In this document: in pieces, positions 19,401-52,683 of the stretch
Position numbering within the stretch: the first letter of the stretch is position 1
How the letters are laid out: every line of letters starts with the position of its first letter
Source: a virus
Lineage: Duplodnaviria > Caudoviricetes
DNA length: 64,000 nt
Virus record (IMG/VR): IMGVR_UViG_3300028797_000124
Location: 53,791 to 117,790 of that record
Direction: 5' to 3' (one strand)
The notes under the pieces: generated by a model
What the model was told of the DNA's origin: nothing
What the model saw: the letters and a program-made list of their open reading frames with translations, nothing else
The model's database searches: none
Made by a program: the position numbers and the translations under genes

Positions 19401-22400
19401 TCTGCATCTTCATCACCAGAACCGTAGATACCCATAACCGCTGAACCAGCAACTGTAGAAGCTGGACGTCTATCGATACGACCAGTCAAAGGATTGGATA
19501 CATAGGCTCCACCATGATGATCAGTACCAACAACATTCATGAAATGATTATTACCATTTCTTGTTCCATAATCGGAACCAGAACCAACAACCGTGATCGG
19601 ATTAGTTGGTGAAGCGGATTTCAGCGACTGCTGTGTCACCTTTCCTGCGTGGACATTCATGCCCAATCCGCGAGCAGTATCTATATAATCACCAACGGAA
19701 GTTCCGCGGTGTGGATCATATGCACCTGATTGATTCATCATTCCAGCCAATGAACGTGCCGAAATTCTTCCTTCAGAGTTGCGATTATACATATCAGCGA
19801 GAGCTATAGGACCACAACCACGCTGATTCATATTCAGGTATCCACCCATACCACGTTGATATTCACCACCGTATGTATTGTATACGTTTGTGACATCACC
19901 GTTAGCGAACGTAGATTCAACCTGATTTCCGTCAGGTGCTTCAATTTGTTTGGTTTCTTTTTGTTCTTCTTCGTTTCTTCCAAGAAGTTCATCTGTCATA
20001 CCCATTGAATACAATGAAGCATAATCGAGTACGAGATTAACCGCACCCTGTGCAACAGATTTACCACCTTGAACAACGAATTCCTTACCTTGTGACATCA
20101 TCTCCTTACCAGTATCAAGTACACCAGAACCAAGTTTCTTAGCTCCAGCACCTATAACAGGAATCTTTCCTATCAGGCTTAATACACCACCGATAGCGGA
20201 TATAATACCACCGATACCCATCATCAATACACCAAATCCGATTTGGAGTACACCCATGATGATTTGAACAGCATCACCGATGATCTTGAGTATAGGTAAG
20301 AGAACGAACTTGAACAAGCCCATGAGAGGTGCGAGGATAACCTTCAAGAGGATACCAACGATCTTCAAGAGAGGAGTCAAGCATCCAATAATGGATTCAA
20401 GTAATGGAGAGAGTACTTCAAGTATAGGCTGAATAACATCCTTCATGATAGGCTGAATGATGTCGCAAACAACTTCTACTATCTGTACAATGAAGCCAGC
20501 AAGCTGCTTAACTATAGAACCAAGCTGCTTTACATAAGGCTTGAGAGTTTTGATTATTGCATGGAATGCGTCATTGAGAGGCATCAGAGCTTCTGTCAAA
20601 ATATCTGTTACTGTCGAAATCATCGCTTTGAAACCTTCAAGCGACATTACAATGGTGAGTACGATATTCGAAATACCCATGAGGACATTCATCATGCCAC
20701 CCATTGCAGCACCAGCACCTTCGGCTGCTCCAGCTTCAGCTGCACCCGCAGCAGCTCCTTCGGCCGCAGCACCACCTGCTCCACCGGTTGCAGCAGTCAT
20801 AGCAATACCTGCAGCACCGCTTCCACCACCGGAACCACCCAATGTTTTATTTAGAACAGCATCCTTGGTAGCCTCAGTAGCATCACCAGCTACACCTTCA
20901 AGAGGATTATCACTACCGCCACTTGCATCCTGAATTTCCTTACTCTCTTCATCCATCTTATCTTGAATACCTTCACCCAAATCATTGAGTGATTGTGTCA
21001 AAGATTGAACGAAACCGGGAGCTGCATCAGGTGAACCAGACCATGATACAATCTCAGTGATATTCGCCAAGTTCTTAGCCATTTCTTCTTGGAATCCTGC
21101 AAGTTTATCTTCTTCAGCCTGCATACTTTCATTCATTGCATCCGTGGCAGCAGAATCCATTTGAACATCTGTTGAAATGACATCCGACGGCTTTTCCTCT
21201 TTCTTGCCAGTTACTGCGGTTTTGATATCAGAAACAACATCTTTGATTGTTTCCAAGAAACCTGTAGCCTTAGAATCATCGATAGCCTGACGAGCTGGCT
21301 CACCCTGTTTCTTTACGTCAGCAGCGTGTTCGGCTTCCTTACGTTCACGATATGCTTTGGTAAAGCCTTTCATAAAGCCAGGTTTTTCAGCGAGCTTGTT
21401 TGCAAAACCTTCTTTGGCACCAGATAATTTACTGAGAATACCTTTCTTTTTATTGCCGTTTTCATCGACTGAAAGATCTTTGGTAAGTTTATCCTTTATT
21501 CCGCGCTTTTCCATCCATCCACCAACTTTATCTTTGATGGATTTTCCTATATTGGAGAAAGCCTTTGTTACACCATCCTTTATGGTTGTGACAGCTTTGT
21601 ATAAACCATCAACCATCGGCTTGATGAATTTTGTCATGGACTTGAACATTGTCTTGATACCAAATCCAAGACTCTTCATACCATACTTGATCTGACGAAG
21701 ACCGCGCATGATACCCCATTTTGCGAACTTGAGGATAGCTCCACCGAAACCTTTGATGATTTTGAATACTGAGAATAGAACGACTTTTATGTATCCTATT
21801 ACAGGAGCGAGGAAAAGTTTGAGACCTCCGAGTGCCATCTTGAGCAATTTACCCATTGTGGATTTTGGAGCATCTCCAGATGAATTATCCTTTTCGCCTT
21901 TAGCATTACGCTTCATCATAGGAATGACAGTCTGGTTAATTCTTCTCTGAAGATCTCTGTCTGATAATTTTGAAGTTAATGTTTGGATGTTCTGAATATC
22001 CATTGTGGATACATTACCATCAGTCATTGCTGTATTTGCCGAGCTTACTATAAGCTGCATGTTCAATGAATCCGAGTCATTTTCTTCAAAATGATTATCA
22101 GCACCAAATTGGGAAAGAATGTCTTCCCATTCTTCATTGAGTCGTTTGTTTGATTTGATACCACCATGAATAGCATCAGAGAGATTGGCACCCTTACCTT
22201 TTAAGAAACTTCCAGCATTATAAATCGGCTTTCCTACAGCACGTAGTGCACCGCCGGTACGAATCGTTTCACCCTCTTCATTAATAGATTTCTTTCCGAG
22301 GACAGCGCCACCAACTTTCTCTTTGGTAGAGCCCAAAACATCGGCAGTTTTTTCTCCAATGCTTGTATTGAGGATTTTTTCCTTTGTACCTTTAAAGAAA

Positions 22401-24598
22401 TCCTTAACACCTTCAGGTATTTTTTCAGATATATCTTTTTTCAGAGAATCAGTTATTTCCATCAATGCCTGAACATTAGGATCAATAGCATATTCTCTAC
22501 CATCACCAAAGAGGAAATTCTTAGCACCAGTTAAAATACCTTTGCCCGCTTCTTTTAGTTTGCCAGTTTTCTGATTCTTACGATATTTCGCGAGTTGTTT
22601 CTGCTCGCGTTCAGATCTTTCGCCCTCGTCTTTATCCAATATATCTTTTATATAGTCCGGAGCTTTATCATATTCTTCATTCTTTGACACATCCGGAACG
22701 GCTGCGTTGACAAAGTTTTCTGCAAGATTTCTATATGGAGCGGTTGCATTGTTAACAGCTTCGACAACGTTCGATGCCCCAGCAGTTGCAACACCCATAT
22801 TATGAGCATTTTTACCATACCCAGGGATCATCTTTATTTCTTCATATGGAACTTTACGAAGTTTTGCACTACCAGTAATGAATACATTCATTCCTCGGTT
22901 GAGCTGATTGAATATTCCCGCAACATAATCGAACGTCGAAGGGATACTCAACGATTGATTGGAACCTATTTGAGTGGGTGCAGCTGCATCTTTCTTCGTT
23001 TCATCGTTGAAAGTGGCACCTGTGTTATACTCTCTATAGTTTCGCTTGAAAGCATCAAGCCACATACTTTTTGTAATCATGCCTGCTTGATGTCCATTTA
23101 CATTAGTGCGTGCAAATGATTCAAATTCTTTATCAGCTCTCTCTGAAGACCGCTGAAGTTCTTGTCTATATTTGAAATCATCTATCTGTTCGATAATTCC
23201 CCAATAGAATTGCTTCCATTGCTCAACTGAACGATGTTTTGGATCGGCTATCGCCATAGCAGTTGCAGAGTCTTCAATAACTTGACGGGTCATTGGATCT
23301 CTTATGTCTTTTATCTGACCATTACCAAGTATAGTTTCACCGCTTAAATACATTTGAAACAACCATGCACCAGTCATTGTTCTGATAGCATTATTTATTT
23401 CTTGAGGGTCCAAACCGGTTCTTTTTTCCGCATTCCTGCGTTGTTCATGACCAACGGTACCAGCTTTGAAATAATTATCTGAAATTTGTCCAATAAATGC
23501 GTTTCCACGTTTACCACTAACGAGATTACCTTTCTCATTAACGGTTTTATCCGGACCGCCTACAGCTTTCAATATCTCTTTAAGATATCCAGGAATTACG
23601 GTGATAATAGATTTACGCGTCATTCCATCGAATACTGCCGGTTTATCATTGTATTGGTTTATTACTGAATTTTGGTAGTTTTTCGACCTGCTCTTCGTTA
23701 TGAGTTCTTCAAAAAAGTCTTCGAATATATGACCTTTTGATTTAAGAATCGTGGTCATTGTATTTTGAATGACTTCACCGACAGTATCATTGATGAATTC
23801 ACCAATGTCATTTATTGATTTCTTGCCGAGCTTATCCCATTTCTTATCCAGAATAGTCTGAGATAATATCATTGACATAACTGTCTCAGGTGTCACCATA
23901 CCGGATCCAAGCACAGTTTTACCAATGCTCATATATGTTCCGAGTGCGGAATCTTCAGCCTGTTCTTTACCCTTGGCCACCAGTCCCGATAAAGATATGC
24001 CGCCACCATAATCAAGAATTGAAGCTTTCTTGAGTTCTTCTTCTTCCTTCTTTGTACGAGCCGACGTCCACTCGACAATGAGGTCAAGACGCTTGCCTAT
24101 CTGAATGAGGGTATTATTGACATTATTAACAGAAGCTGTGAGCTCAGCAGTTCTTGTATTAATAGTAGAAATGATTTCCGCAGTATTAGCAATATGCAAA
24201 TCAGCCTGACGGCCAAATGCTTTATACATTGCACCGGTCTGTTTCTTTGCTATATCGGTCATCATATCCTTTGACAAAGGCTGAGACTTGTCTCCACCCG
24301 ATTCTGAATCAGCTGAGTCTATTTCAAAACCAGCATCAAAGTCATCATCGTCAAAATCAAAGTCTCCGAACATTCCACCTTCGTTATAGAACCAATCGCG
24401 AGTCTTCTTCAGGATTCCGGAACTCTTGAGTTCATTGAACTTCTTAGCACCATCGGAACCCATCTGTTTACCCATGTCAATTACTTCTTTAACATCATTG
24501 GCAAAAGATATAGCGTTATCAAAATAATCGGTGGTGGATTGCGCAATTCCACCAGCAACTATCTGCATACTTCTGCGGACGAAATCATTCATTGCCAT
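16472..24598 (-). CDS. Tape-measure / tail-associated multi-domain peptidoglycan hydrolase
   Basis: ~2700 aa; long helical region with hydrophobic segments, then C39-like peptidase (NQRGCGPIALA...HFMNVVG), NlpC/P60 (RPDCSGF...HVGMYIG), phage tail lysozyme (IWAYL...AAGFMG..EVES...GLAQWT) and SH3b (LRSSTSDDSSVLTWIPDG...GWYKASYGGQTGYV); start moved to ATG 24598 behind GAAAGGAGG. Confidence 0.8.
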   Translation of the reverse strand: MAMNDFVRRSMQIVAGGIAQSTTDYFDNAISFANDVKEVIDMGKQMGSDGAKKFNELKSSGILKKTRDWFYNEGGMFGDFDFDDDDFDAGFEIDSADSESGGDKSQPLSKDMMTDIAKKQTGAMYKAFGRQADLHIANTAEIISTINTRTAELTASVNNVNNTLIQIGKRLDLIVEWTSARTKKEEEELKKASILDYGGGISLSGLVAKGKEQAEDSALGTYMSIGKTVLGSGMVTPETVMSMILSQTILDKKWDKLGKKSINDIGEFINDTVGEVIQNTMTTILKSKGHIFEDFFEELITKSRSKNYQNSVINQYNDKPAVFDGMTRKSIITVIPGYLKEILKAVGGPDKTVNEKGNLVSGKRGNAFIGQISDNYFKAGTVGHEQRRNAEKRTGLDPQEINNAIRTMTGAWLFQMYLSGETILGNGQIKDIRDPMTRQVIEDSATAMAIADPKHRSVEQWKQFYWGIIEQIDDFKYRQELQRSSERADKEFESFARTNVNGHQAGMITKSMWLDAFKRNYREYNTGATFNDETKKDAAAPTQIGSNQSLSIPSTFDYVAGIFNQLNRGMNVFITGSAKLRKVPYEEIKMIPGYGKNAHNMGVATAGASNVVEAVNNATAPYRNLAENFVNAAVPDVSKNEEYDKAPDYIKDILDKDEGERSEREQKQLAKYRKNQKTGKLKEAGKGILTGAKNFLFGDGREYAIDPNVQALMEITDSLKKDISEKIPEGVKDFFKGTKEKILNTSIGEKTADVLGSTKEKVGGAVLGKKSINEEGETIRTGGALRAVGKPIYNAGSFLKGKGANLSDAIHGGIKSNKRLNEEWEDILSQFGADNHFEENDSDSLNMQLIVSSANTAMTDGNVSTMDIQNIQTLTSKLSDRDLQRRINQTVIPMMKRNAKGEKDNSSGDAPKSTMGKLLKMALGGLKLFLAPVIGYIKVVLFSVFKIIKGFGGAILKFAKWGIMRGLRQIKYGMKSLGFGIKTMFKSMTKFIKPMVDGLYKAVTTIKDGVTKAFSNIGKSIKDKVGGWMEKRGIKDKLTKDLSVDENGNKKKGILSKLSGAKEGFANKLAEKPGFMKGFTKAYRERKEAEHAADVKKQGEPARQAIDDSKATGFLETIKDVVSDIKTAVTGKKEEKPSDVISTDVQMDSAATDAMNESMQAEEDKLAGFQEEMAKNLANITEIVSWSGSPDAAPGFVQSLTQSLNDLGEGIQDKMDEESKEIQDASGGSDNPLEGVAGDATEATKDAVLNKTLGGSGGGSGAAGIAMTAATGGAGGAAAEGAAAGAAEAGAAEGAGAAMGGMMNVLMGISNIVLTIVMSLEGFKAMISTVTDILTEALMPLNDAFHAIIKTLKPYVKQLGSIVKQLAGFIVQIVEVVCDIIQPIMKDVIQPILEVLSPLLESIIGCLTPLLKIVGILLKVILAPLMGLFKFVLLPILKIIGDAVQIIMGVLQIGFGVLMMGIGGIISAIGGVLSLIGKIPVIGAGAKKLGSGVLDTGKEMMSQGKEFVVQGGKSVAQGAVNLVLDYASLYSMGMTDELLGRNEEEQKETKQIEAPDGNQVESTFANGDVTNVYNTYGGEYQRGMGGYLNMNQRGCGPIALADMYNRNSEGRISARSLAGMMNQSGAYDPHRGTSVGDYIDTARGLGMNVHAGKVTQQSLKSASPTNPITVVGSGSDYGTRNGNNHFMNVVGTDHHGGAYVSNPLTGRIDRRPASTVAGSAVMGIYGSGDEDAESGYTFPDAIKEAFKKLKDEAAKILGLFSMEKSDEEETEELINAEKKKEAVEQAKKQMGDDYDTYAEEAKGLALEDFKTKYPQKDGESDEDYQKKFDKWWETKANQAEYLAKTELLDAASKKGQDAYAELAKTNQKFVDDYAGKVDENGNITGGLFDKLGDAYTELDSALDSLGSGSARGGQSGLDVMKGAAYAFKAYVDAHPSGTYLHSDVGPITADDGYTWSHFRPDCSGFMSASIRHMGYDFKGSDNDTTGPLTYNFNENLSSYGTKTIVDQNGNSAEEDWEVLPYSESDLRPGDWIFTSGKSDSYPESHVGMYIGKDSSGSHRGLDGGGTQPILDSAGAAPKVLEGVSSGDGLRWTMQPSDHPDKILRYVKPTYDGLVGDNDQEKIWAYLTSHGANKTGAAGFMGVWEVESANNPSRLEGDWKMGGINSPAVMNAYKSQANMNSYVTDMVAKVYGGWGSLNRPTYEPDGDGNFYPGVGLAQWTGNRTKSVFNKGTKMGVPFNSLEAQLALWEDEVTNNNYYNSALTGANNAGTPAAAAEKVLNIYEGLSSTNKYAALAKRQTYADQFYERFKDWSPDVAAAKNTTPTGKGSASTGYGMVNSPGDAAIVENARQINSLNGKNSGTVMTNTGVPLGLRSSTSDDSSVLTWIPDGTHLEELSVSGKQGWYKASYGGQTGYVNAEWIVLDNDWRDGLYTADEAVVPPDELAKADEAVKALQTYANNSTGGGKISPSGGSSSSVDEKMWDFGHWTDSDVNSDKRNEWYPMLVDYHSSAIAGKNKNGGTAMGKAKTAADSYKLSYRNASHKHHGETYGPTDKHYWMYSYLDSKDRVNDPLKKQLDLLHNWYASGDMNEMDFWDNYLGWNNKYANSNITTPVNNDLYDTDTYYDTETGTTVVNNYAVTRAEDRATDARLKAILANTYNVRSESMEALLEAILEELKRRKGGNGGPTNTSGSSKLFDERIPSQVTKLSVG

Positions 24599-24636
24599 AT
24601 TAACCCCTCCTTTCAATTAAATTTATATAAAAGAAT

Positions 24637-41693: not shown

Positions 41694-44096
41694 ATGGCTG
41701 AAAATAATAACATGATAAATCATTCAGCAACAGCGGCGGTTAGCGATGCGACCGCCGCAGCCAATGCTGCAGCAAATATGAACGATAGTTCTGTTGAATC
41801 TGCCGCAAAGGATGCAACTGCTGGTGTTGAGATGCCTAAAGGTGTAAACGAAGAAGCAGATCTTAAGATTGAAGCACCGAAGAAAAATGAAGTAATCGAT
41901 ACGATCAATAATGCTCCAGATCTTGTGACCGCAACCGAGTCTGTTGCAGCAATGTATTGTATACCTTCATCTTGCATAGTTGAAGATCCTTTTACAGACA
42001 GAATGGCTGTAAAGAACGGAACAATCGTTGTTCCTTCAAATTCAACAGCAAAGCCTTCCGAGAACGGAAAGGTTATCATTCAATCCATCGGCGCTCTTCT
42101 CGACTACATCTCCCAGAGAGCTGATGATAAGCTCGACAAGTTCCAGGCTGATAATATCAGAGATGGAATCAACAAAGAAAAGGTTGCTGATATGACCAAT
42201 CCTTCAAAGGGTAAAGTTGTAGCAACTCAGTTCGATGCCAACGGAGATCCTGTAGTAGTATATGACTCCGGTCTTGCTGATATGGCAAATACTAAGGAAG
42301 CCCAGGAAACATTCGACGCTATGAAGAATGGTGGAGACGTTCCTGAATATAAGGGTGGTACTGAAGATTATTCTTACTTCACTAAGGAAGAAGAAGATAT
42401 CACGGGAGGTCAGGATATCTCCGGTGGTGATTCAGGTGTGGATGTTACAAGTGGAAATGAAGCTCCATCTGCTGCAGGTTCTGGTCCGGAAACCGATATC
42501 GCAACCAACGATTCTACCACTGAAACCAATGTAAGTGAGAGCCTTCATGAAGAAGGATATCTCCTTGATGCAATCGGACAGCGTGGAAACACACGCCATC
42601 TCGGTTATGATATCATGATGGAACAAGGTTTCAACTTCGTTAAACCTGTTGATTTCTTTGTGGAGTCTGCTACAAAGAAAAAGAATCGCCAGATAACTGC
42701 TGTTGGCATCGAACACATGAAGTTTGATAATACAAAACTTCTTAAGGCTATAAAGCTTCTTAATGATGCAAGAAAAGAACAGACTGGCGGTAAGGGTAAG
42801 ATCAATCTTGAAACATTAATCAACAATCCTAAATATCAGGAAGCTATCGATTGCCTCAACGACCAGTTCAATGCTCGTCTGAATATCCGCTTCATCAAGA
42901 CTCAGGATAAGATAAACCGCGAGTTCACTTCGGTATATAATGATATCAAGACACATCTCACGATATCCAAGTCCAAGGGATTCCAGCTTGGTGGTCTTCC
43001 TATAGATATCTTCGTTACAAATACTGCACTCGATGAAGATGCTCCCGATGATATATCACTCTTTGGTCAGCACGTTATCAGTGTATTCTGTCATGAGATA
43101 TTCCACAATATCATGGCTGTTCTTAAGAGCAAGGAATCTCAGTTCACAGCATCTCTCGTTGAAACATTGACACTTGCACAGAACATCCCATCTGCTTCTA
43201 ATCGTCGTAAGCTTATTTGCAACTACGTAAATACTCTCGACGATTTCGGCGGCTTAAAGATGAACGTGTTCACTAAGAGAGCACTTGTAAAGCACCTCAC
43301 ATATCTCTCAACAATCTGTCATGATGAACAGGCCGTTGCTGAATATGAGAAGGCTGTCAGAAGCAAGAAGGTTGAAGGTATCGATGAGCAGATCAAGAAG
43401 ATGGAAAAGAGAGTTCGTAAACTCAAGTTCCATACTTATGGTCCAACAAGATACTTCATACCTGCAGCAATGACTATTGGTACTATTATCGGTATGGCTT
43501 CTGCAGAAGCAGCATTCCCAATGTTCGCAGTATTATTCGGATTTTCATTCGGTACTCTCTGGGGAACTGCGATCGGTCATGCTGTTCAAATCGATACAAT
43601 CAACAAGATCAAGAATGGTACTATCAAAAACTATGAAGAGCACTGGTGTGATATGTTTGCTGCCTGCTACAATCTGCCTGTTACATTCTTCATGGTTGGT
43701 AAACCAAGAAGCGGCGCTGCTAATGATTATGCTGTCGAAACACTGAAGCGTTACGATGAGCTTGAGCGTGAAGCAATGCAGCTTATGATGATCAAGTATC
43801 CTACCATCACTGAACGCAATCAGTCCGCTGTCAAGTATGCTAAGAAAGTACTTGATTCCAAGGTTAAACTTGATCCTTCTATCAAGAAATACATGGAGTG
43901 GATAGTTGCAAATTATTCCAAGACTCTTGATGTTGATATCGACGAGAACTATTCCAAGGGAACATTCGATCCTAAGACTGCTGAAGATCTGGATAAACAC
44001 ATCGAGAAGCTGATCGGTTCTGCGAATATCAATGTTACAGAATCCGATATCTCTTGGCTTGATGATCTCGTAGATGATACCGAATACTACTATTGA
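41694..44096 (+). CDS. Virion-associated zincin metalloprotease with transmembrane segments
   Basis: FCHEIFHN (HExxH) plus downstream EEHWCDMFA; two hydrophobic helices; acidic N-terminal region ending near FFVE-S. Confidence 0.65.
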   Translation: MAENNNMINHSATAAVSDATAAANAAANMNDSSVESAAKDATAGVEMPKGVNEEADLKIEAPKKNEVIDTINNAPDLVTATESVAAMYCIPSSCIVEDPFTDRMAVKNGTIVVPSNSTAKPSENGKVIIQSIGALLDYISQRADDKLDKFQADNIRDGINKEKVADMTNPSKGKVVATQFDANGDPVVVYDSGLADMANTKEAQETFDAMKNGGDVPEYKGGTEDYSYFTKEEEDITGGQDISGGDSGVDVTSGNEAPSAAGSGPETDIATNDSTTETNVSESLHEEGYLLDAIGQRGNTRHLGYDIMMEQGFNFVKPVDFFVESATKKKNRQITAVGIEHMKFDNTKLLKAIKLLNDARKEQTGGKGKINLETLINNPKYQEAIDCLNDQFNARLNIRFIKTQDKINREFTSVYNDIKTHLTISKSKGFQLGGLPIDIFVTNTALDEDAPDDISLFGQHVISVFCHEIFHNIMAVLKSKESQFTASLVETLTLAQNIPSASNRRKLICNYVNTLDDFGGLKMNVFTKRALVKHLTYLSTICHDEQAVAEYEKAVRSKKVEGIDEQIKKMEKRVRKLKFHTYGPTRYFIPAAMTIGTIIGMASAEAAFPMFAVLFGFSFGTLWGTAIGHAVQIDTINKIKNGTIKNYEEHWCDMFAACYNLPVTFFMVGKPRSGAANDYAVETLKRYDELEREAMQLMMIKYPTITERNQSAVKYAKKVLDSKVKLDPSIKKYMEWIVANYSKTLDVDIDENYSKGTFDPKTAEDLDKHIEKLIGSANINVTESDISWLDDLVDDTEYYY

Positions 44097-45528: not shown

Positions 45529-46854
45529 ATGGCTTTCACTAATTCCTCATTGGTTACTTACACAAGAATATCTCCTAATAGAAATTCTCCGCGTAATCAG
45601 CCAATATCAAAAATAACAATTCATCACCAAGCGGGTGTCAACAGTGTCGAAGGTTTCGGAAACATTGTCGCATCTCCTGCGAGAGGAATGTCTGCAAACT
45701 ATGCGATCGGCAATGATGGCCGTATAGGTCTGTATTGTCCTGAGTGCGATAGATCATGGTGTTCCTCTTCACCGTGGAATGATAACCGTGCAATCACCAT
45801 TGAAGTTTCAAACTCGGCATATGGTGATGATACAGGTTGGCCTGTATCGGCTGCGGCTTATGCTTCATTGATCAAGCTGTGTGTTGATATCTGTAAGAGA
45901 AACGGAATCCCTAAGCTGGTATTCACCGGTGATAAAGAAGGTTCTCTCACATTCCACTACATGTTTGCAGCAACGGCTTGTCCAGGTCCCTGGATTAAGG
46001 CACGTGCTCAGGAAATATGTGATAAGGTAAATGCTCAGCTCGGTGATGTTAAACCCACTCCGGAACCTCAGGCTGGTTTGTATACAGTTGACCTCAAAGC
46101 CAACGACAACATCTATGATGCTGCTGGTGGTAAGAAGGTTGGTTCAATCAACATGTCGACTAAGTATACGATCGTTGAGGACAAGAAGGTTGGATACATA
46201 ACCTACGGCAAACTGAAGAGTGGTGCAGGTTGGGTAATCGTTAAAGATGAAACTCCTGTTAAACCAGCACCCACACCAACACCTTCCACATTCAAGACTG
46301 GCGATTTGGTAAAGATCACTGGTACGAAATACTACAACGGCATATCAATCCCAAGTTGGGTAGCTGCTGAGAACTGGTACATTTCTTCCATCAGCGGAGA
46401 TAGAGCAGTGCTTGGCCAGAATGAGGCTAAGAACAGAAACATCCAGTCTCCTATAAATACTAAGGATATTGCGATGGTAACTGCTAAGGTCAATACCTAT
46501 ACCAAATCTCTGAAGTCCACAGATCTGTTGTATTCTTCCGCAGGCGGTAGAATAATCGGCACGGTTGGTGCAACTGGCGTGTTCACAATCGTTGAGGATA
46601 AGACTATAAACGGTGTCGTTTATGGTAAGCTGAAGAGCGGTGCTGGATGGGTTGTATGTTACAACAACTCAACCATCAAGGTTGGTGACTGGGTAAAGGT
46701 TATCAACCCGATCATCTACGGTACAACAAGAAAGTTCACAGTATTCGTTGATAAGTACAAGGTGCTTGAAGTGAATGGTGACAGACTTGTTATATCTTCC
46801 GATGGTAAGAACGTAACGACCGCAATTGCAAAGATCAATGTGCAAAAAATATAA
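45529..46854 (+). CDS. N-acetylmuramoyl-L-alanine amidase endolysin with repeated cell-wall-binding domains
   Basis: KITIHHQAG, SANY, AITIEVSN, LTFH..FAATACPG (Amidase_2); two YGKLKSGAGWV repeats and SH3-like modules. Confidence 0.85.
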   Translation: MAFTNSSLVTYTRISPNRNSPRNQPISKITIHHQAGVNSVEGFGNIVASPARGMSANYAIGNDGRIGLYCPECDRSWCSSSPWNDNRAITIEVSNSAYGDDTGWPVSAAAYASLIKLCVDICKRNGIPKLVFTGDKEGSLTFHYMFAATACPGPWIKARAQEICDKVNAQLGDVKPTPEPQAGLYTVDLKANDNIYDAAGGKKVGSINMSTKYTIVEDKKVGYITYGKLKSGAGWVIVKDETPVKPAPTPTPSTFKTGDLVKITGTKYYNGISIPSWVAAENWYISSISGDRAVLGQNEAKNRNIQSPINTKDIAMVTAKVNTYTKSLKSTDLLYSSAGGRIIGTVGATGVFTIVEDKTINGVVYGKLKSGAGWVVCYNNSTIKVGDWVKVINPIIYGTTRKFTVFVDKYKVLEVNGDRLVISSDGKNVTTAIAKINVQKI

Positions 46855-46863
46855 AAAGATATT

Positions 46864-46884
46864 CCGGGGGCAGTGTGCCCCCGG
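46864..46884. terminator. Terminator hairpin between the endolysin and array B
   Basis: CCGGGGGCA-gtg-TGCCCCCGG with T-rich flanks on both strands. Confidence 0.7.
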
Positions 46885-46929
46885 TTTATCCTTTGTTATT
46901 GGTGTTTCGATGTCAGTACGAAGCATCAC

Positions 46930-47742
46930 ATATCATGACCACGCCTTCGCCTTAATCAACGTGACAACAGTCGACTATGCTTTACCCTAACTTATATCAA
47001 CCGCTGCGACATGACACATTACCAGCCGACACTTTACCTCTACAGGACGCGACCGCACCCCGCGAAACGGGACCGCACCGTGACAGAACTTCGCCATACG
47101 GACCATCACCCTGCCTACACGATATACAATCGAACCCTACCGACCCAAACCTCGACAAGACTTTACGAAAGAACACTTGACTTTACTTTACCTTACCATC
47201 ACTTCAAGGCACACCCCACACAAGATATTACCGTACCGCTACCCTGCTCTACGCCGCATGACAATACGTGGCTGCACCAATACCAACACCTTACTACTCC
47301 TGACGATACAGGACCGAAACTATACGCTCTGTAACCACGTCTAACCGGACCATAACTTCACCCTACTGGACTTAACGGCCTTGCACTGAACGGCACAGTA
47401 CCTCCACCTTACGCGACGGTACGCGACGAACCTTTACCAAAACCGAATCAGCACCGTACCTGACCGTTCATAACCAGTCTACACCATTACCAAACAATAC
47501 CATTACCAAACAGCATGAAACATAACCTCACCTCACCAATACTGTGCATTACCATACGCTCAATATAATACATAATTATACCGTTGCTTTATACCGCAAC
47601 ACGTCACCTCACCCATGCGTGACAAAATATAACAGTAATACACACTACAATACCATCACGAGAGCTTATAGTACGAGACCTCTCAGCACCAGAACCATGC
47701 AAAACCCTACTCGACCTGGCTGAACCTAAACTTTACTTTACA
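46930..47742 (-). ncRNA. 5-nt-periodic array B (GY-NNN on minus strand), candidate guide-RNA array
   Basis: Plus strand parses as NNN-RC pentamers, e.g. cgctac cctgc tctac gccgc atgac aatac gtggc tgcac (47237-47277); C/A-rich; no credible ORF; bounded by hairpins. Strand and RNA status are inferred. Confidence 0.6.
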
Positions 47743-47766
47743 TCATTCTTTCGAATAAACAAATGC

Positions 47767-47784
47767 GGGGGTCATTCGACCCCC
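47767..47784 (-). terminator. Hairpin after the Cas7-like/HNH pair
   Basis: GGGGGTC-attc-GACCCCC. Confidence 0.6.
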
Positions 47785-47813
47785 ACGATAAATAGGAAGT
47801 TAGCCATGAATAC

Positions 47814-48245
47814 TCATAACAATTTATACCAATATAAATTGCTAACACGAAGGTCCGTGTAATCTTCATTTCTAAAACGAGCAACATACTTTCCTTCGGT
47901 TGGCATTGGCCTAAAGGTTGTCAATATAAGCTGAGCGGCATCAAGTTTCATTTTTCTGGAACAAGATATCTTGAGCTTACCATCCCATTCCTGTGGCTTT
48001 ACTATTGTTCCAGACACACGGATCTGACCGTCTGTGGAGCATTCAATATATGGATAGTTTGGATGAACTCTCCACTCAAAGTAATCGAGTGTTTTGCCGA
48101 TAATGTCGCAGTATACCTGGGCATTGTCGTCATTCAGGCACATGTCCAGAATATCAGATTTTGATATGTTGTTTTTGACAATGAATCTCGAAAGCTTTTT
48201 AAGTTTCCTTTTGAGTTTCTCTTCTGATTCTGGGATCATACTCAT
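47814..48245 (-). CDS. Degenerate NUMOD4/HNH-like protein
   Basis: EWRVHPNYPYIECSTDGQIR (NUMOD4-like) and ARFRNEDYTDLRVSNLYW (HNH-like, His residues absent); TAATG overlap with the upstream gene. Confidence 0.55.
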   Translation of the reverse strand: MSMIPESEEKLKRKLKKLSRFIVKNNISKSDILDMCLNDDNAQVYCDIIGKTLDYFEWRVHPNYPYIECSTDGQIRVSGTIVKPQEWDGKLKISCSRKMKLDAAQLILTTFRPMPTEGKYVARFRNEDYTDLRVSNLYWYKLL

Positions 48246-49036
48246 TACTCAAAATCCTCCTCAATCTCTCCAATTTCTTCATGATTTATATAATCACAAA
48301 GAGCATCGTTGAAATCAGCATCCTTCGTAGTAACGCCGAGGATAGTTTTGGTGTTTCCACCAATGATCTCACCATCATCGGAAAACTCTTCCCAAAGGAA
48401 TGTTCCCTTTTTGCCGGATCCACGCCACTGGCCAGTACCACTGAATCTTCCCATATTGAGAGCTTCTTCAATCGGGTATCTATATTCAGAATTTGACATA
48501 AGTATTGTGAACCTTGTCCTCGTTCTGGGTGGACATGTAATCGAGGATGCGAGAGCTATTCTCTCACCCTGTTGGGTATTTGCTCTGAGTGGGCGCTGTA
48601 ACATACCTGTCGATTCTCCCTTAGGGAGCACAAGTATTGAGAATTTGTTCGCAAATGCGATACCGTTATCGAGTCTCTTTTTATAATTTGTGAGTGCACC
48701 AGAAGCAGTTTTCTTGTTGTCCAGTTTGAGAAATCCAATTTTCTCCTTCATAAACCCGAGCCATGTGTGGTTCGAAAGTGCAGGTTTTCCGTCAACTGTG
48801 AGGAACTTAGTTGTTCCATTCTCGAGAACTTGTTCTGCACCAAGTGCAGAGATTTCATCAGCCATGTCTGCATCCGTCGCCTTATCTGCAACATACTTGC
48901 TATAAACATCAGCATTTCCCGGGCACGATCCAAGAATCTCCGACGTGAAGATGATTCTGATATTCATCTTCTCAACGAATCCTCCAAATGTTGCTGATGT
49001 GACAACTGTATCCGCCTTTTTAGTTTTAGCAGCCAT
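48245..49036 (-). CDS. Stand-alone Cas7/RAMP-fold-like protein
   Basis: beta1 NIRIIFTSEILG; DGKPALSNHTWLGFMK (cf. G.P.IPGSSLKG); ITCPPRTRTRFTI (cf. E.VP.G..F.F.I); C-terminal G-rich loop EALNMGRFSGTGQWRGSGKKGTF. Confidence 0.65.
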   Translation of the reverse strand: MAAKTKKADTVVTSATFGGFVEKMNIRIIFTSEILGSCPGNADVYSKYVADKATDADMADEISALGAEQVLENGTTKFLTVDGKPALSNHTWLGFMKEKIGFLKLDNKKTASGALTNYKKRLDNGIAFANKFSILVLPKGESTGMLQRPLRANTQQGERIALASSITCPPRTRTRFTILMSNSEYRYPIEEALNMGRFSGTGQWRGSGKKGTFLWEEFSDDGEIIGGNTKTILGVTTKDADFNDALCDYINHEEIGEIEEDFE

Positions 49037-49119
49037 AATATGACCCTTTCTACCCTTTTCCCTGGGTGCAAGGAATTTTGAATTTTACCACAGATACCAA
49101 AAGATATTTGATTCTATAG

Positions 49120-49134
49120 CATATTAATAATATA
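49120..49134 (-). promoter_or_regulatory. Putative phage early promoter TATATTATTAATATG for the Cas7-like gene
   Basis: Exact 15-mer also at 52771-52785 (-) and 62254-62268 (+), each just downstream of a terminator-like hairpin. Confidence 0.6.
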
Positions 49135-49161
49135 ATTATCAAAAAAGAAAATAATAGGAAT

Positions 49162-49188
49162 TTATCAGGGGCATAAAGCCCCTGATAA
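49162..49188 (-). terminator. Terminator at the 3' end of array A
   Basis: TTATCAGGGGC-ataaa-GCCCCTGATAA followed on the minus strand by a T-rich tract. Confidence 0.75.
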
Positions 49189-49206
49189 TTCTTTACTATC
49201 CTATAG

Positions 49207-49630
49207 CTCACCGGACCATAACCTTACACACCTCAACACAAGTCCACTTGAATCTACGTTACCGGGACTAAGCAAGATTACGCAGAAGAGTACCATGACA
49301 TTGCCCTACATTACCTGACCATACCACCACCTCACATGACATTACGCGACCTTACCATGGCATTACCCTACGTTCCTTGACCAAACCATTGCTGAACATA
49401 TCTTACCCACACTAAACCGACACAATGCCTCACCATGCACCCCGTCACGTCACCAGCACTATACTGCACCGAACGATGCGCGACCTCACTCCACCAACAC
49501 CATACCCTTACCTCTCGACATACCACGAAACGTATCCTTACCAATGCTTTAACAGCACTTAACAGTACTTAACAACACCGAAGCCGGACACGACATTGCG
49601 TTACGTAACCATTACAATACGAGACTTACG
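49207..49630 (-). ncRNA. 5-nt-periodic array A (GY-NNN on minus strand) with 31-nt units, candidate guide-RNA array
   Basis: Units start at 49263, 49294, 49325, 49356, 49387 and 49418 (31-nt spacing), each one hexamer plus five pentamers mostly ending in AC/GC, e.g. caccac ctcac atgac attac gcgac cttac. Confidence 0.65.
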
Positions 49631-49678: not shown

Positions 49679-50818
49679 TTATTCGTCATTGAGATCTTTA
49701 AGCATTGACATAAATTCTGAGATCTTGTTGCGATCAATATTTGATTGATCGTATGTGTCTACCTTACGCTTTCTTGGCTCAACCTTGACATTATCATCTT
49801 TCGCTTTAGGTCCCTTGTAATGTTCTTTTCTGGTAAATTCTTTACCGTACTTAGAATGAGCTTTATGTTCACGGACAAGCCATTTATCGGTGTGACGAGT
49901 TATTTCACGTCCACTGAAATTGTGCTCACACATGTATATGCGTTTTATATTCCTGAGAGGTTGGTTGTTATACATGTATATGGGAGATTGATCAGTCTTG
50001 CTTTGTTCCCATGTATTAGTTTCCCATATCTCACGTATCTCTGGATTATTTAATGCAAAAACACATGTGCACCAGCTATCGAGTGAACCCATCATAACAT
50101 TTACAATCTTAAGGGAAATTGTATCATCAATTTCGTCAGTATGATCGATGAACCGGTCTCTGAATGATTTCCTGTGTGCTCGAGATGTACTTACCAGGAA
50201 AAATCCCGAAAATATCGGACGGCAGATTTTGTTTTCTTCATCAAACATCAATCCAATGGTTGTGGCAGTTTCAGGATACACACACTCAGATCCAGAATAT
50301 AATGACACTGACATGATTCCGAAATCGAAAGGTTCAAATTTACCACTTTCAATATTAGCCTTGTTATCAAGATACTTCTTTTTCTTAATAATCATATGGA
50401 TGTGTATAGCTGTGTTGTTTGAAGGATCTTTGATATTAATCAACATATCATCATATGGTAATTTTTCAAAATAATATAAGAAATCAGTGTGGTCTTTGGT
50501 TTCTTTAAAATGTGAATCAAGATCCTTCATGATTGGAATACTCGTATCTATCAGCACTTTTGGTTTGTGCTTTAACACCTCTTCGATCAATCTCTCAGAA
50601 TAATGTTCAGAATATATATCAAAACCTAATGGAGATCTTATTCTAATTGGCGGGGCAGGAACGACCCCATCCCAATTGCCAATCTTTTTCGCAAACTTAT
50701 TAATTTTGCGCTGGATTTCTCTATTGGTGCTATTTCGATCGAAACCGAAATCGTGTTGTGCCATCTCGTTCTGGATATCCTGGTCATTGTTAGTCTGTTT
50801 TGGTATTCTTGCTTTCAT
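49679..50818 (-). CDS. Hypothetical phage protein with C-terminal WxVRxH motif
   Basis: KWLVREHKAHSKYGKEFTRKEHYKG resembles the W.VRGH.R...G...W...H.KG tail of many uncharacterised phage proteins. Confidence 0.55.
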   Translation of the reverse strand: MKARIPKQTNNDQDIQNEMAQHDFGFDRNSTNREIQRKINKFAKKIGNWDGVVPAPPIRIRSPLGFDIYSEHYSERLIEEVLKHKPKVLIDTSIPIMKDLDSHFKETKDHTDFLYYFEKLPYDDMLINIKDPSNNTAIHIHMIIKKKKYLDNKANIESGKFEPFDFGIMSVSLYSGSECVYPETATTIGLMFDEENKICRPIFSGFFLVSTSRAHRKSFRDRFIDHTDEIDDTISLKIVNVMMGSLDSWCTCVFALNNPEIREIWETNTWEQSKTDQSPIYMYNNQPLRNIKRIYMCEHNFSGREITRHTDKWLVREHKAHSKYGKEFTRKEHYKGPKAKDDNVKVEPRKRKVDTYDQSNIDRNKISEFMSMLKDLNDE

Positions 50819-50821
50819 TTA

Positions 50822-51691
50822 TTACACCCCAAACTTTGCTGATATTTCTTTATACGCACGACCAGTTCTTACCGTACTTACCAATGCAACGTCAACTTCG
50901 ACATTGTATTTTGCATTAATTGCTTTGATTATTGCATTGGAATTGGCACCCCTGTTTGCCGATATGGCTTCCATGATAAAGATCTCTTTCACCCCTCCAC
51001 CAAGCGTTGATACTTTTCCAGTATTGAAGAGATTCCATCTGATGATAGCAACCTCCAAAATATCATTTGCCGACATGTCTGGTGTTATTGTTTTGATGAC
51101 ATCATAAGCATTTTTATTCAAAAGCGCCATGATTTCTTTAGCGCTTTCAGGCGATGCACCAAATTTGTCGGGAAGATTTTTTCTCAGAGATTGAATGTGA
51201 TCATTACTAATAAGGAAATAATCATCAGTATATCTCTCAAATGTTCCTTTCTTTACGAGTCTCTGGATGGCGCGTTCAGGCATATCTTTCCATTTTTTCA
51301 TGACGGCGTCGATTGTTTTTGTTAATGTCTTTCCGTCACATTTCTTGGAGATAAACTCGGCAATCTCGAGCGCTTCGGCTTTCTGGATCTGTTTATTCAC
51401 TCTTGGTTTCGACCCTTCTCCAGTCCTTACCTTTGTCTCCTTGACATCGTTATCTTCCAAAGGTTCGAGAGTAATCTCTGGTTCATATACCTCGATAGGC
51501 GTAACAGTTTCCTCAATATCGTCAGAAGATAATGATATCCCCGTTCTCCAATTCTGAATGCTGTTTAAATACTCAGATATATCAACCAACTCGGTTGAAA
51601 TCTTTTTGAGGGAATCATATGTGATACCAAGCCTTTCCATCTCTGAGTTAAAAACCGTTATCGCATTTACCGCGTTTACAACACCATTCAT
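50822..51691 (-). CDS. Putative DNA-binding protein (HNH-associated helical modules)
   Basis: Modules ERAIQRLVKKGTFERYTDDYF and ALVSTVRTGRAYKEISAKF resemble the C-terminal modules of 57439..58488. Confidence 0.45.
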   Translation of the reverse strand: MNGVVNAVNAITVFNSEMERLGITYDSLKKISTELVDISEYLNSIQNWRTGISLSSDDIEETVTPIEVYEPEITLEPLEDNDVKETKVRTGEGSKPRVNKQIQKAEALEIAEFISKKCDGKTLTKTIDAVMKKWKDMPERAIQRLVKKGTFERYTDDYFLISNDHIQSLRKNLPDKFGASPESAKEIMALLNKNAYDVIKTITPDMSANDILEVAIIRWNLFNTGKVSTLGGGVKEIFIMEAISANRGANSNAIIKAINAKYNVEVDVALVSTVRTGRAYKEISAKFGV

Positions 51692-52683
51692 TAGTTAACA
51701 CCTCCTGCTTTCTTTGTACGATAATCAGCATATATTGTTGAAATTGTCTTTGCTGTTGATGATTTCCCATTAATCACATTTCCGATATTAGATGGGTTAA
51801 CATCGCATCCAAATTTTTCTTTTATGAGTTTTGCATAATACGATGCTTTCTTATCAGCCTTTGTATCAAGGATTGAAATTGTCATGATCTCAATTTCCTG
51901 ATTTGAAATCTTCTGGTTCAGCCCGACTTTTCTGCGTAACATTTCTTCGACTAATTCGACATCCTTTGTTTGCTTCAATAAACCATAACAATCCAACCCG
52001 GTTCTTTCACCCATCTGATCTAACGTTGGTACAATGCTTCCATCTTCATAGATGAAGAACTTATCGGTGATTGTCGAAAAAGCTTTCTTGGTTTTGATTT
52101 CTTCAATGAACTCCCTGGACACCGGGGGATACGATCCTTCATACTTTGTCAAGGTAACATCTATATCTCCATCGGCGTCTATCAATCTTCTTGAGATATC
52201 TTCGATTAGAGATACTTTTGGATCTGGGCGATCTCCTTCATACCAGAAAATGTTATTCGGCGAAAGATTACGGCGGTCCCCGTCTTTGTATCCAATATAG
52301 TTTACCTTACTTGGATCATCTGACTTTATGCCAAAAGCCATTGCGACTAAAGTACTACACCTCTTAATGTCAGCACCTTTCTTAATACGCATGTCGCCAT
52401 CATACCAGAACGGAGTAAACAATCCTCCAGTGACGGCGTCGTAAAATTTTCCATCAGACGAAACGTTGATACCGGCTGAGCGAGCTTGATTCATCTCGAT
52501 TTCAGCATCTGAATCTCCGAAAAAAGCATCCAGTTTCTCAAGACCGATTTTAGCAGGTGCGCTTATTGAAGCGATTGCTTCCACTTCGGTTCTTGATGCT
52601 GAGTTTCTGAGATCTCCAGCACAGTTCTTCACGGCTTTGACGGCTTCCGTTATTGTCATTATTGCTTTGGATATGTCTGTCAT
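51691..52683 (-). CDS. Degenerate HNH-like protein
   Basis: LVAMAFG...YIGYKDGDRRNLSPNNIFW (HNH-like without His) plus a helical module ending TITDKFF. Confidence 0.5.
   Translation of the reverse strand: MTDISKAIMTITEAVKAVKNCAGDLRNSASRTEVEAIASISAPAKIGLEKLDAFFGDSDAEIEMNQARSAGINVSSDGKFYDAVTGGLFTPFWYDGDMRIKKGADIKRCSTLVAMAFGIKSDDPSKVNYIGYKDGDRRNLSPNNIFWYEGDRPDPKVSLIEDISRRLIDADGDIDVTLTKYEGSYPPVSREFIEEIKTKKAFSTITDKFFIYEDGSIVPTLDQMGERTGLDCYGLLKQTKDVELVEEMLRRKVGLNQKISNQEIEIMTISILDTKADKKASYYAKLIKEKFGCDVNPSNIGNVINGKSSTAKTISTIYADYRTKKAGGVN

What the first reader, a model, noticed from the sequence alone, without database searches (positions are those of the whole stretch)
46930..49630. Candidate non-CRISPR RNA-guided system: solo Cas7/RAMP-like gene flanked by two 5-nt-periodic arrays
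Seen: a 263-aa ORF (48245-49036, -) with RAMP-like motifs (beta1, GKP-x-L helix, PP-x-T-x-T-x-F strand, C-terminal G-rich loop SGTGQWRGSGKKG). It lies between two non-coding tracts (49207-49630 and ~46930-47742) in which a fixed dinucleotide recurs every 5 nt (plus NNN-RC; minus GY-NNN) while the intervening triplets vary. The gene has its own promoter motif and the arrays end at terminator hairpins. No cas1/2/5/6/8/10 or repeat-spacer CRISPR is visible in the window. Established: Cas7-family proteins polymerise on guide RNA with a fixed nucleotide step per subunit. Inference: each pentamer is one subunit footprint, GY is the protein-read constant and NNN is the programmable base-pairing part, giving gapped recognition of host or competing phage nucleic acid. 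From memory, and unverified, phage RAMP proteins beside GGY-NN pentamer arrays have been reported as 'VIPR'. This locus would be a GY-NNN variant, so novelty must be checked against that.
Basis: partly seen in the sequence, partly recalled or inferred. Interest (0 to 1): 0.95.

Follow-up and report, generated by a model that had tools for sequence, protein, structure and literature searches.

The report
Phage VIPR system with GY-NNN guides
A 118-kb phage carries a VIPR system: a small Cas7-like protein flanked by two arrays of about 40 short guide RNAs written in five-base steps. It is real, but it is one more example of a CRISPR-related DNA-silencing system first described in 2026 preprints.

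Summary
Two non-coding tracts (46914-47745 and 49191-49627, minus strand) show a strong 5-nt period (z about 10-12 against shuffles). They are the only such tracts in the 118-kb phage genome. The unit is G-T/C-N-N-N on the strand of the 263-aa gene.

The protein folds as a Cas7-type RAMP (best match Csm3, Z 12.2). It aligns end to end, weakly, with the characterised SUSP1 Vipr protein (hhalign E 5e-5) and shares its G-loop W-R motif. Of 152 homologous loci, 148 have a G-periodic 5-nt tract next to the gene.

This is therefore a VIPR system (bioRxiv 10.64898/2026.04.26.720920). It is of the sort whose Methods and legends mention YNNNG repeats and 'staggered' arrays. This scan has reported the same kind on other DNA.

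What I add:
- The arrays are built of tail-less modules of 5k+1 nt, joined at an extra G.
- Modules are gained and lost between phages that encode identical proteins.
- The G-loop residue that reads the first G in SUSP1 (Asp) is Gln here, matching the loss of that G.
- An HNH-like gene is coupled to vipr.

Targets and the reading rule were not found. Verdict: a new member of a known kind, of modest interest.

The parts
49191..49627 (-). Upstream vrRNA array B. About 87 pentamers (G-Y-N-N-N) in about 15 runs, 12 of them modules of 21 nt or more. It follows the stop of the 379-aa gene directly.
   Evidence: Lag-5 identity 0.43; z 10.4; segmentation and +1 shifts at 14 of 14 junctions. The RNA is no more structured than shuffles, z -0.30.
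49162..49188 (-). Terminator-like hairpin (11 pairs) with a T-rich tail, ending array B.
49037..49161 (-). AT-rich spacer upstream of vipr with a possible promoter (TTGATA-18-TATAGA by eye) and a ribosome-binding site.
   Evidence: Sequence. Not confirmed by the consensus scan.
48245..49036 (-). vipr: a 263-aa Cas7-like RAMP. The core is residues about 21-220, with a G-loop G-T-G-Q203-W204-R205 and an Arg-rich thumb hairpin Q147-R148-P-L-R151. The N-terminal 20 residues and the acidic C-terminal tail are specific to this clade.
   Evidence: AF2 pLDDT 81.8. Foldseek top hits are all Cas7/Csm3/Cmr4/Csf2. VIA Z 12.2 to Csm3, and the first 44 rows are all RAMPs. hhalign to the SUSP1 Vipr family gives E 6.5e-5 and 4.9e-5.
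47814..48245 (-). 143-aa HNH-homing-endonuclease-like gene. Its start overlaps the vipr stop by 1 nt. Candidate accessory (vap-like) gene.
   Evidence: phrog_959 'HNH endonuclease', E 9e-12. The only significant fold match is I-HmuI 1u3e, E 7.7e-4, from a low-confidence model. A 72%-identical orthologue sits in the same place in L082.
47765..47786 (-). Terminator-like hairpin between the protein operon and array A.
46914..47745 (-). Downstream vrRNA array A. About 165 pentamers in about 27 runs, 21 of them modules of 21 nt or more. A less regular AT-rich stretch lies near 47560-47650.
   Evidence: Lag-5 identity 0.41; z 11.6; +1 shifts at 24 of 26 junctions.
46864..46884 (.). Bidirectional terminator-like hairpin shared by array A (-) and the endolysin gene (+).

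Best explanation
This is a VIPR (Viral Interference Programmable Repeat) system of a large phage.

Shown here:
- A Cas7-like RAMP gene is flanked on its own strand by two long tracts of G-Y-N-N-N pentamers.
- The gene-array pairing is conserved across a large phage-borne family.
- The tracts are built of modules of 5-8 pentamers plus one extra G (5k+1 nt).
- Modules are gained and lost as units.

Inferred from the published SUSP1 system:
- The tracts are transcribed with or beside vipr.
- Each module becomes one short, tail-less guide.
- One Vipr protomer binds each pentamer and sequesters the constant G-Y in its G-loop/thumb pocket.
- The variable bases are presented to double-stranded DNA, which is read discontinuously.
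- Binding silences genes of competing phages, satellites or prophages in the same host.

My preferred detail, at about 55%: the unit is really x-G-Y-N-N. That is the canonical two-base code with one skipped target base, in which the first G of GGY is no longer read because the Asp that reads it in SUSP1 is Gln here. The extra G at each junction then restores one full GGY per module and marks the guide boundary. The coupled HNH-like protein is a DNA-binding or nicking helper.
For: Fold. The AF2 model has pLDDT 81.8. All top Foldseek hits are Cas7-family proteins. VIA gives Z 12.2 (156 aligned, rmsd 3.7) to Csm3, and the first 44 rows are all RAMPs. The family profile hits the G-loops of Csm4 and type VII Cas7 by sequence at E about 1e-3.

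Link to Vipr. SUSP1 has the same layout: array, 195-aa vipr, 146-aa gene, array, all on one strand, with GGT-NN repeats. Profile-profile alignment with the SUSP1 Vipr family gives E 6.5e-5 over 108 columns and E 4.9e-5 over 173 collinear columns running from beta-1 to the G-loop. The SUSP1 Vipr ORF is the top hit of our family HMM among 199 SUSP1 ORFs. The G-loop reads G-x-G-Q-W-R against G-x-G-D177-W178-R179, and the paper assigns D177 to G1, W178 to G2 and R179 to Y3.

Arrays. Period 5 is significant and unique in the genome. A G-periodic tract on the gene strand lies next to the gene in 80 of 80 IMG/VR loci and 68 of 72 genome loci. Family-wide, 1842 of 2556 runs have a length of 1 mod 5.

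Module turnover. Three contigs encoding the identical protein carry 62, 35 and 44 modules in collinear order, and only 10 are shared by all three.

The paper names YNNNG repeats and staggered arrays offset by 1 nt.

Support for x-G-Y-N-N. Position 4 carries 0.02 bits. It also changes most between related modules: 30, 59 and 75 changes at positions 2, 3 and 4, p 7e-5. Gln sits at the D177 site in 89 of 90 loci, all with xG arrays. Two neighbouring guides (49386-49356 and 49324-49294) differ at 1 of 12 positions 2/3 but at 2 of 6 positions 4.

Phage origin. Head protein, DNA polymerase, topoisomerase II, helicase and endolysin are all present.
Against: - Sequence homology to a characterised Vipr is weak: hhalign probability 64-68%, and HMM-to-sequence E 0.043.
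- The SUSP1 structure (PDB 36pp) is not in the fold libraries, so no direct structural comparison was possible.
- The thumb Arg equivalent to SUSP1 R138 cannot be assigned from the alignment.
- There is no expression data.
- No promoter was found for array A, which lies between two terminator-like hairpins.
- No target was found under any of nine reading rules, either in the phage's own genome or in 0.7 Mb of related loci.
- Five exact pattern scans of IMG/VR gave only chance-level hits.
- Position 3 also varies a good deal, so the two-base reading is not proven.
- The HNH-like gene is absent from relatives L085-L088. It could simply be a homing-endonuclease gene that landed there.
Confidence: 0.85

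Rival explanations
1. Same VIPR-type machine, but with a truly different code. Only G-Y is sequestered, and all three variable bases of each pentamer pair with the target, which is then read in steps of 3 or 4 nt.
For: All three positions are close to uninformative (0.11, 0.13 and 0.02 bits). The paper itself writes the variant as YNNNG. Both residues that read G1 in SUSP1 appear to be replaced, which could free that nucleotide to pair rather than merely to be ignored.
Against: Position 4 is distinctly the least constrained between related guides, as expected for an unread base. The published geometry gives the target 2 paired bases plus 1 skipped base per protomer, and a different step needs a different filament. 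Decoded NNN targets with 0 or 1 skipped base found nothing in IMG/VR or locally, although the two-base rule found nothing either.
Confidence: 0.3
2. The complex targets RNA rather than DNA. It would work like the Csm3/Cmr4 backbones it most resembles in fold, binding or cutting transcripts of competitors.
For: The best structural matches are the RNA-targeting type III and type VII Cas7 proteins.
Against: The characterised VIPR systems bind double-stranded DNA and target both strands. Type I and type IV (DNA-binding) Cas7 proteins are also among the matches. No catalytic residues were identified here.
Confidence: 0.08
3. The tracts act as DNA and are not guides. They could be protein-binding iterons, bent DNA, or a packaging or replication element, and the RAMP-like protein binds them or is unrelated.
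For: No expression data exist. No promoter was found for array A. Five bases is about half a helical turn.
Against: The periodic base is always G on the strand of the gene, in both upstream and downstream arrays, across about 150 loci. That is a strand-specific, transcript-like property. The arrays end at intrinsic-terminator-like hairpins on that strand. Modules turn over like guides. The partner is an RNA-binding RAMP fold with an intact G-loop.
Confidence: 0.03
4. An anti-CRISPR device. A phage Cas7 mimic, with or without decoy RNA, poisons host class 1 CRISPR complexes.
For: Phages are known, from my own knowledge, to carry solitary Cas-like genes and RNA decoys. The fold is Cas7.
Against: A decoy would copy host CRISPR repeats, which are about 30 nt and conserved. 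These tracts have hypervariable 5-nt units and no repeat-spacer structure, and about 40 different modules are costly for a decoy. The homologous SUSP1 system has been shown to be a guide system.
Confidence: 0.02

Closest known systems
VIPR systems with alternative YNNNG/NNNNG repeats and 'staggered' vrRNA arrays (bioRxiv 10.64898/2026.04.26.720920, Methods and legend of fig. S18)
   Same: A solitary Vipr RAMP gene in a phage. Long flanking non-coding tracts on the same strand. A pentamer unit with constant G-Y and three variable bases. Consecutive guides offset by 1 nt, with the end of one marking the start of the next. No CRISPR array.
   Different: I could not see the figures or data tables, so which of the seven types this clade belongs to, or whether it was in their NCBI-derived set at all, is unknown. 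The nearest 99 homologues carry no NCBI or UniRef source, but MAG contigs in GenBank do encode more distant members. This locus has two arrays with about 40 modules and an HNH-like partner.
Type II VIPR of Escherichia phage SUSP1 (Vipr 195 aa, PDB 36pp; vap1; four vrRNAs)
   Same: The gene order array-vipr-small gene-array on one strand. A RAMP with an alpha-bundle insert, a thumb and a G-loop ending in W-R...G-[RK]-F. One pentamer per presumed protomer. Carried by a phage.
   Different: SUSP1 repeats are GGY-NN, in separate vrRNAs of about 100 nt with 9-16 repeats. Each has a leader and a conserved 3' pseudoknot tail. Here the unit is xGY-NN/GY-NNN, the guides are 5-8 units long, tail-less and abutting, and no Rfam or conserved structure is present. 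G-loop Asp177 is Gln, and His17 aligns with Ser. The proteins are only marginally alignable. The partner gene is unrelated to vap1.
Class 1 CRISPR backbone proteins (Csm3, Cmr4, type VII Cas7, type IV Csf2, Cas7-11 domains)
   Same: An RRM/RAMP fold with a G-rich loop and a thumb (Z 10-12). The presumed mode of action is polymerisation along a guide RNA with a fixed step.
   Different: There is no repeat-spacer array and no other cas genes nearby. The step is 5 nt rather than 6 nt. The guide is written as a periodic code instead of a contiguous spacer. Sequence identity is only 10-16%.

Membership tests
VIPR system | Vipr protein: a minimal RAMP with an RRM core, a glycine-rich loop and a thumb | tested here: met
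   AF2 pLDDT 81.8. All top Foldseek and VIA matches are Cas7-type RAMPs, Z up to 12.2. Invariant G196, G200, W204 and G211 form the G-loop, and Q147-R148-P-L-R151 forms a beta-hairpin.
VIPR system | Sequence homology of the protein to an experimentally characterised Vipr (SUSP1) | tested here: inconclusive
   hhalign E 6.5e-5 at probability 64%, and E 4.9e-5 at probability 68% over 173 collinear columns. The family HMM ranks the SUSP1 Vipr ORF first of 199 ORFs, but only at E 0.043. This is suggestive, not decisive.
VIPR system | Tandem pentanucleotide repeats with a conserved G(G)Y part and hypervariable N, in the intergenic DNA flanking vipr on its strand | tested here: met
   G 0.90, Y 0.92, then three near-random positions; z 10-12. 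The same association holds in 148 of 152 homologous loci. The form is the YNNNG variant named in the paper, not canonical GGY-NN.
VIPR system | Minimal locus without a CRISPR array, carried by a virus | tested here: met
   No repeat-spacer array in the 117,790-bp genome. Phage head, polymerase, topoisomerase II, helicase and endolysin genes are present. Other cas genes were not searched for exhaustively.
VIPR system | Accessory vap gene next to vipr | tested here: inconclusive
   A 143-aa HNH-like gene overlaps the vipr stop and is conserved in L082-L084. It is absent in L085-L088. It has no similarity to SUSP1 vap1. The paper lists HNH domains among vap proteins.
VIPR system | vrRNAs are expressed, processed and co-purify with Vipr | not testable with these tools
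   Needs small-RNA sequencing and pull-down.
VIPR system | Guides decode to natural targets by a gapped rule (NN plus one skipped base) | tested here: inconclusive
   No matches above shuffled controls under nine rules in the phage's own genome or in 0.7 Mb of related loci. IMG/VR exact scans gave 0, 0, 0, 1 and 11 hits, which is chance level, and no two guides hit the same contig.
Type II VIPR (SUSP1 clade) | GGY-NN repeats, vrRNAs of about 100 nt with a conserved 3' tail or pseudoknot, and vap1 | tested here: not met
   The first G is absent. Modules are 26-41 nt and abut without tails. There is no conserved structure. The partner is unrelated to vap1.
CRISPR-Cas class 1 | A repeat-spacer array and a multi-gene cas operon | tested here: not met
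   No CRISPR-like repeats in the genome. The neighbours are an HNH-like gene, an endolysin and genes of unknown function.

The most novel reading that the evidence does not exclude
This clade may be a distinct functional variant of VIPR. Its guides would be very short, tail-less units of 5-8 protomers, about one helical turn of the published filament. They would be cut or delimited at a single extra G (a once-per-guide GGY), read by a code that differs from GGY/NN (three paired bases, or a relaxed first position), and coupled to an HNH-like effector. If the module rule and code hold, it would give a far more compact format for multiplexed programmable DNA recognition: about 40 guides in 1.3 kb.
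Probability: 0.25. Interest if true: 0.6.

Novelty: new member of a known kind. Interest (0 to 1): 0.32.

Why it matters
VIPR is a very recent discovery, and only the GGY-NN type II systems have been studied at the bench. This locus is a clean, complete natural example of the little-described G-Y-NNN 'staggered' form, with about 40 guides in two arrays.

Three observations give testable handles on how guides are delimited, how the constant part is read, and how the guide repertoire evolves:
- the 5k+1 module rule;
- the Asp-to-Gln change at the residue that reads the first G in SUSP1;
- module-level turnover between phages with identical proteins.

The family is abundant: at least 570 IMG/VR contigs, and 1105 clusters at 50% identity. 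It is concentrated in gut and rumen Clostridia phages, so it probably shapes phage-phage competition in those communities. It does not open a new category.

Tried and rejected
- Pfam, PHROGs and PDB sequence searches with the 263-aa protein alone gave nothing. Only fold and profile methods worked.
- megablast of the locus against 50,697 phage records found no match. tblastn found only four unannotated gut 'Bacteriophage sp.' records.
- Rfam found no family, including hammerhead ribozymes, in the locus.
- The array RNA is not more structured than shuffles, so there is no tail or pseudoknot.
- Target search, local. Nine decoding rules (positions 2-4, 2-3 or 3-4, with 0-3 skipped bases) were run against the phage's own genome and 0.7 Mb of related loci. 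Results were indistinguishable from shuffled guides.
- Target search, IMG/VR. Five exact scans gave only chance-level hits, and none of the 12 hit contigs was matched by a second guide.
- Reading the triplets as codons gave no stop-codon depletion (7 seen, about 9.5 expected by my own arithmetic frequencies). One guide decodes as G-E-R-I-S-A-I-A, which recalls the family's own GERIALAS motif, but it fits only 4-5 of 8 codons. I treat it as chance.
- A covariation test between G-loop residue and GG or xG arrays within the family was not informative, because all members are Gln with xG.
- The supplementary tables of the VIPR paper are not held, so the VIPR type could not be assigned.
- The period-5 blip at 901-1050 is ordinary coding sequence.
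Full report
1. THE OBSERVATION

Both tracts are strongly 5-nt periodic. Identity at lag 5 is 0.41 and 0.43, with echoes at lags 10, 15 and 20. The neighbouring genes give 0.21-0.25. Against dinucleotide-preserving shuffles the signal lies at z = 11.6 and 10.4, and no shuffle comes near it. A sliding scan finds no other such tract in the window or in the whole 117,790-bp contig of which the window is bases 53791-117790.

A phase-tolerant model on the minus strand gives the unit G (0.90), T (0.80; C 0.12), then N, N, N. The variable positions carry only 0.11, 0.13 and 0.02 bits. The arrays run from about 49627 to 49191 and from 47745 to 46914. Each ends at a terminator-like hairpin on that strand.

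2. HIGHER-ORDER STRUCTURE

The register slips by +1 at almost every break: 24 of 26 junctions in array A and 14 of 14 in array B. The runs are therefore 31, 36 or 41 nt, that is 5k+1. The junction is an extra G (…N-N-N-G|G-T-…) with a weak surrounding consensus G-Y-A-A-T-G-G-T-A.

The same rule holds in close relatives and across the family. There, 1842 of 2556 runs have a length of 1 mod 5, and the commonest lengths are 26, 31 and 36 nt. The window holds 33 modules of 21 nt or more, and about 250 pentamers in all.

3. THE PROTEIN

No Pfam, PHROG or PDB sequence match exists for the 263-aa protein. It does have 99 close unnamed metagenomic homologues. It also belongs to a family of 1105 clusters at 50% identity.

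With a 55-sequence alignment, AlphaFold2 gives pLDDT 81.8 and pTM 0.77. Foldseek's significant hits are all Cas7-type proteins: Csm3, Cmr4, type VII Cas7, Csf2 and Cas7-11. An independent all-against-representatives alignment puts Csm3 first at Z 12.2 (156 residues, rmsd 3.7), and the first 44 rows are all RAMPs. The family profile also finds the G-loops of Csm4 and type VII Cas7 by sequence, at E about 1e-3.

4. WHAT IS KNOWN

In outline:
- VIPR consists of a Vipr RAMP and vrRNAs of GGY/NN pentamers.
- One protomer binds each repeat. The GGY bases are flipped into protein pockets.
- The NN bases pair with double-stranded DNA, with one target base skipped per unit.
- Natural targets are competing phages, satellites and prophages.

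The Methods add that some loci have NNNGG, YNNNG or NNNNG repeats. A figure legend describes 'staggered' arrays whose vrRNAs are offset by 1 nt, the end of one marking the start of the next. GY-NNN read in another register is YNNNG. The 5k+1 modules fit the staggered description, although I could not see the figure.

5. LINK TO A CHARACTERISED VIPR

I found the SUSP1 locus in KT454805. It reads array, 195-aa vipr, 146-aa gene, array, all on one strand, with GGT-NN repeats and tails. This is the same layout as here.

The evidence for protein homology is as follows:
- PDB 36pp is annotated 'SUSP1 Vipr protein'. It is not in the fold libraries.
- Profile-profile comparison of our family with the SUSP1 family gives E 6.5e-5 over the C-terminal 108 columns.
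- With larger alignments it gives E 4.9e-5 over 173 collinear columns, from beta-1 to the G-loop. Probabilities are only 64-68%.
- The SUSP1 Vipr ORF is the best of 199 SUSP1 ORFs for our family HMM, at E 0.043.

The G-loop aligns as G-x-G-Q203-W204-R205 against G-x-G-D177-W178-R179. In the structure paper, D177 and H17 read G1, W178 stacks on G2, and R179 holds Y3. Here W and R are kept. Asp is Gln in 89 of 90 loci. H17 aligns with Ser37 in a low-confidence region. That matches a repeat which has lost the first G but kept G-Y. This is an inference from alignment, not a structural result.

6. CONSERVATION OF THE PAIRING

At least 570 IMG/VR contigs encode a relative. All 80 loci fetched have a period-5 tract directly upstream or downstream of the gene. 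The periodic base is G on the gene's strand, and the second base is T, C or A depending on the clade.

In species-representative genomes, 68 of 72 loci show the same pairing. Two of the four exceptions are short contigs, and most records are gut or rumen Clostridia MAGs.

Three contigs encoding the identical 284-aa homologue carry 62, 35 and 44 modules in collinear order. Only 10 are common to all three. So modules are the unit of gain and loss. No module of the window is shared with relatives; the best identity is 0.69.

7. THE READING RULE

Between related modules (120 minimum-spanning-tree edges), changes fall as follows:

| Pentamer position | Changes |
|---|---|
| G | 8 |
| Y (mostly C/T) | 54 |
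| 2 | 30 |
| 3 | 59 |
| 4 | 75 |

The difference among the three variable positions is significant, p 7e-5. Position 4, which occupies the place of G1, is thus the least constrained and the least informative.

Two neighbouring guides (49386-49356 and 49324-49294) are near-duplicates. They differ at 1 of 12 positions 2/3 and at 2 of 6 positions 4.

I therefore lean to x-G-Y-N-N, the canonical code with an unread first base. Position 3 also varies a good deal, so the rule is open.

8. TARGETS

None was found.
- There is no excess over shuffled guides under nine rules, in the phage's own genome or in 0.7 Mb of related loci. The absence of self-matches agrees with the paper's report that there is no self-targeting.
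- Five decoded guides scanned exactly against IMG/VR gave 0, 0, 0, 1 and 11 hits. That is the chance level for 24, 18 and 16 specified bases.
- None of the hit contigs is matched by a second guide.

9. THE PARTNER GENE

The 143-aa ORF overlaps the vipr stop by one base. It matches PHROG 'HNH endonuclease' families at E 9e-12. In a low-confidence model (pLDDT 62), its only significant structural match is the HNH homing endonuclease I-HmuI.

Orthologues of 59-73% identity exist. Those whose contigs were read (L082-L084) lie directly after vipr. The relatives L085-L088 lack the gene.

From memory of the I-HmuI motif, which I have not verified, the catalytic His position appears to be replaced (…Y-V-A-R-F-R-N-E-D-Y…N-L-Y-W). 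It may therefore bind DNA rather than cut it. It may equally be an unrelated homing-endonuclease remnant.

10. VERDICT

The locus is a VIPR system of the published YNNNG/staggered sort, so it is a new member of a known kind. This scan had already reported such loci on other DNA. Examples are a 277-kb phage with GY+NNN guides and a gut phage with single-G pentamers.

What remains open, and mildly interesting, is the guide-delimiting rule, the code, and the role of the HNH-like partner.

Noticed in passing
window 49294-49386 (-): Two guides one module apart are near-duplicates: GTTTG GTCAA GGAAC GTAGG GTAAT GCCAT and GTATG GTCAG GTAAT GTAGG GCAAT GTCAT. They probably aim at two alleles of one target. 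Read as reverse-complement codons, both begin with ATG (MIPVLQ and MIPILH).
   Followed up: partly
L085, L086, L087 (arrays from about 4860 onward): Three metagenomic contigs encode the identical 284-aa Vipr homologue, but their arrays are 2.1, 1.3 and 1.5 kb long (62, 35 and 44 modules). Blocks are inserted or deleted at module boundaries. In this clade the last pentamer of a module is almost always GC rather than GT (93%).
   Followed up: partly
window 45529-46854 (+): Endolysin: an N-acetylmuramoyl-L-alanine amidase (Pfam Amidase_2, E 1e-17) followed by three repeats of a motif (…YGKLKSGAGWV…) that looks like a cell-wall-binding domain. This hints at a Gram-positive host, in line with the Clostridia MAGs that carry relatives of vipr.
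   Followed up: no
window 41694-44096 (+): An 800-aa protein with an HExxH-like motif (…FCHEIFHN…) and hydrophobic C-terminal segments. Possibly a metallopeptidase-like virion or lysis-associated protein.
   Followed up: no
window 49679-52683 (-): Three consecutive genes of 379, 289 and 330 aa upstream of array B have no family match. The 330-aa protein carries an HNH_3-like '…NNIFWYEG' motif. Array B starts about 50 nt after the 379-aa gene's stop, so it may be read through from that operon.
   Followed up: no
window 16472-24616 (-): A 2714-aa ORF. A close relative (L082) has a 2693-aa gene with Phage_lysozyme2 and Peptidase_M23 domains next to its array. It is probably a giant virion-associated lytic or tail protein.
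   Followed up: no
L141 and L142 (JAGCAN010000001.1, 86 kb, Oscillospiraceae MAG): One contig carries two vipr homologues about 48 kb apart. Each matches the query at 37% identity over residues 24-216.
   Followed up: no
window 47560-47650 (-): Inside array A the periodicity weakens in an AT-rich stretch that contains a small hairpin (GTTGC…GCAAC) and a TATAAT. It could be an internal promoter or a boundary between two sub-arrays.
   Followed up: no
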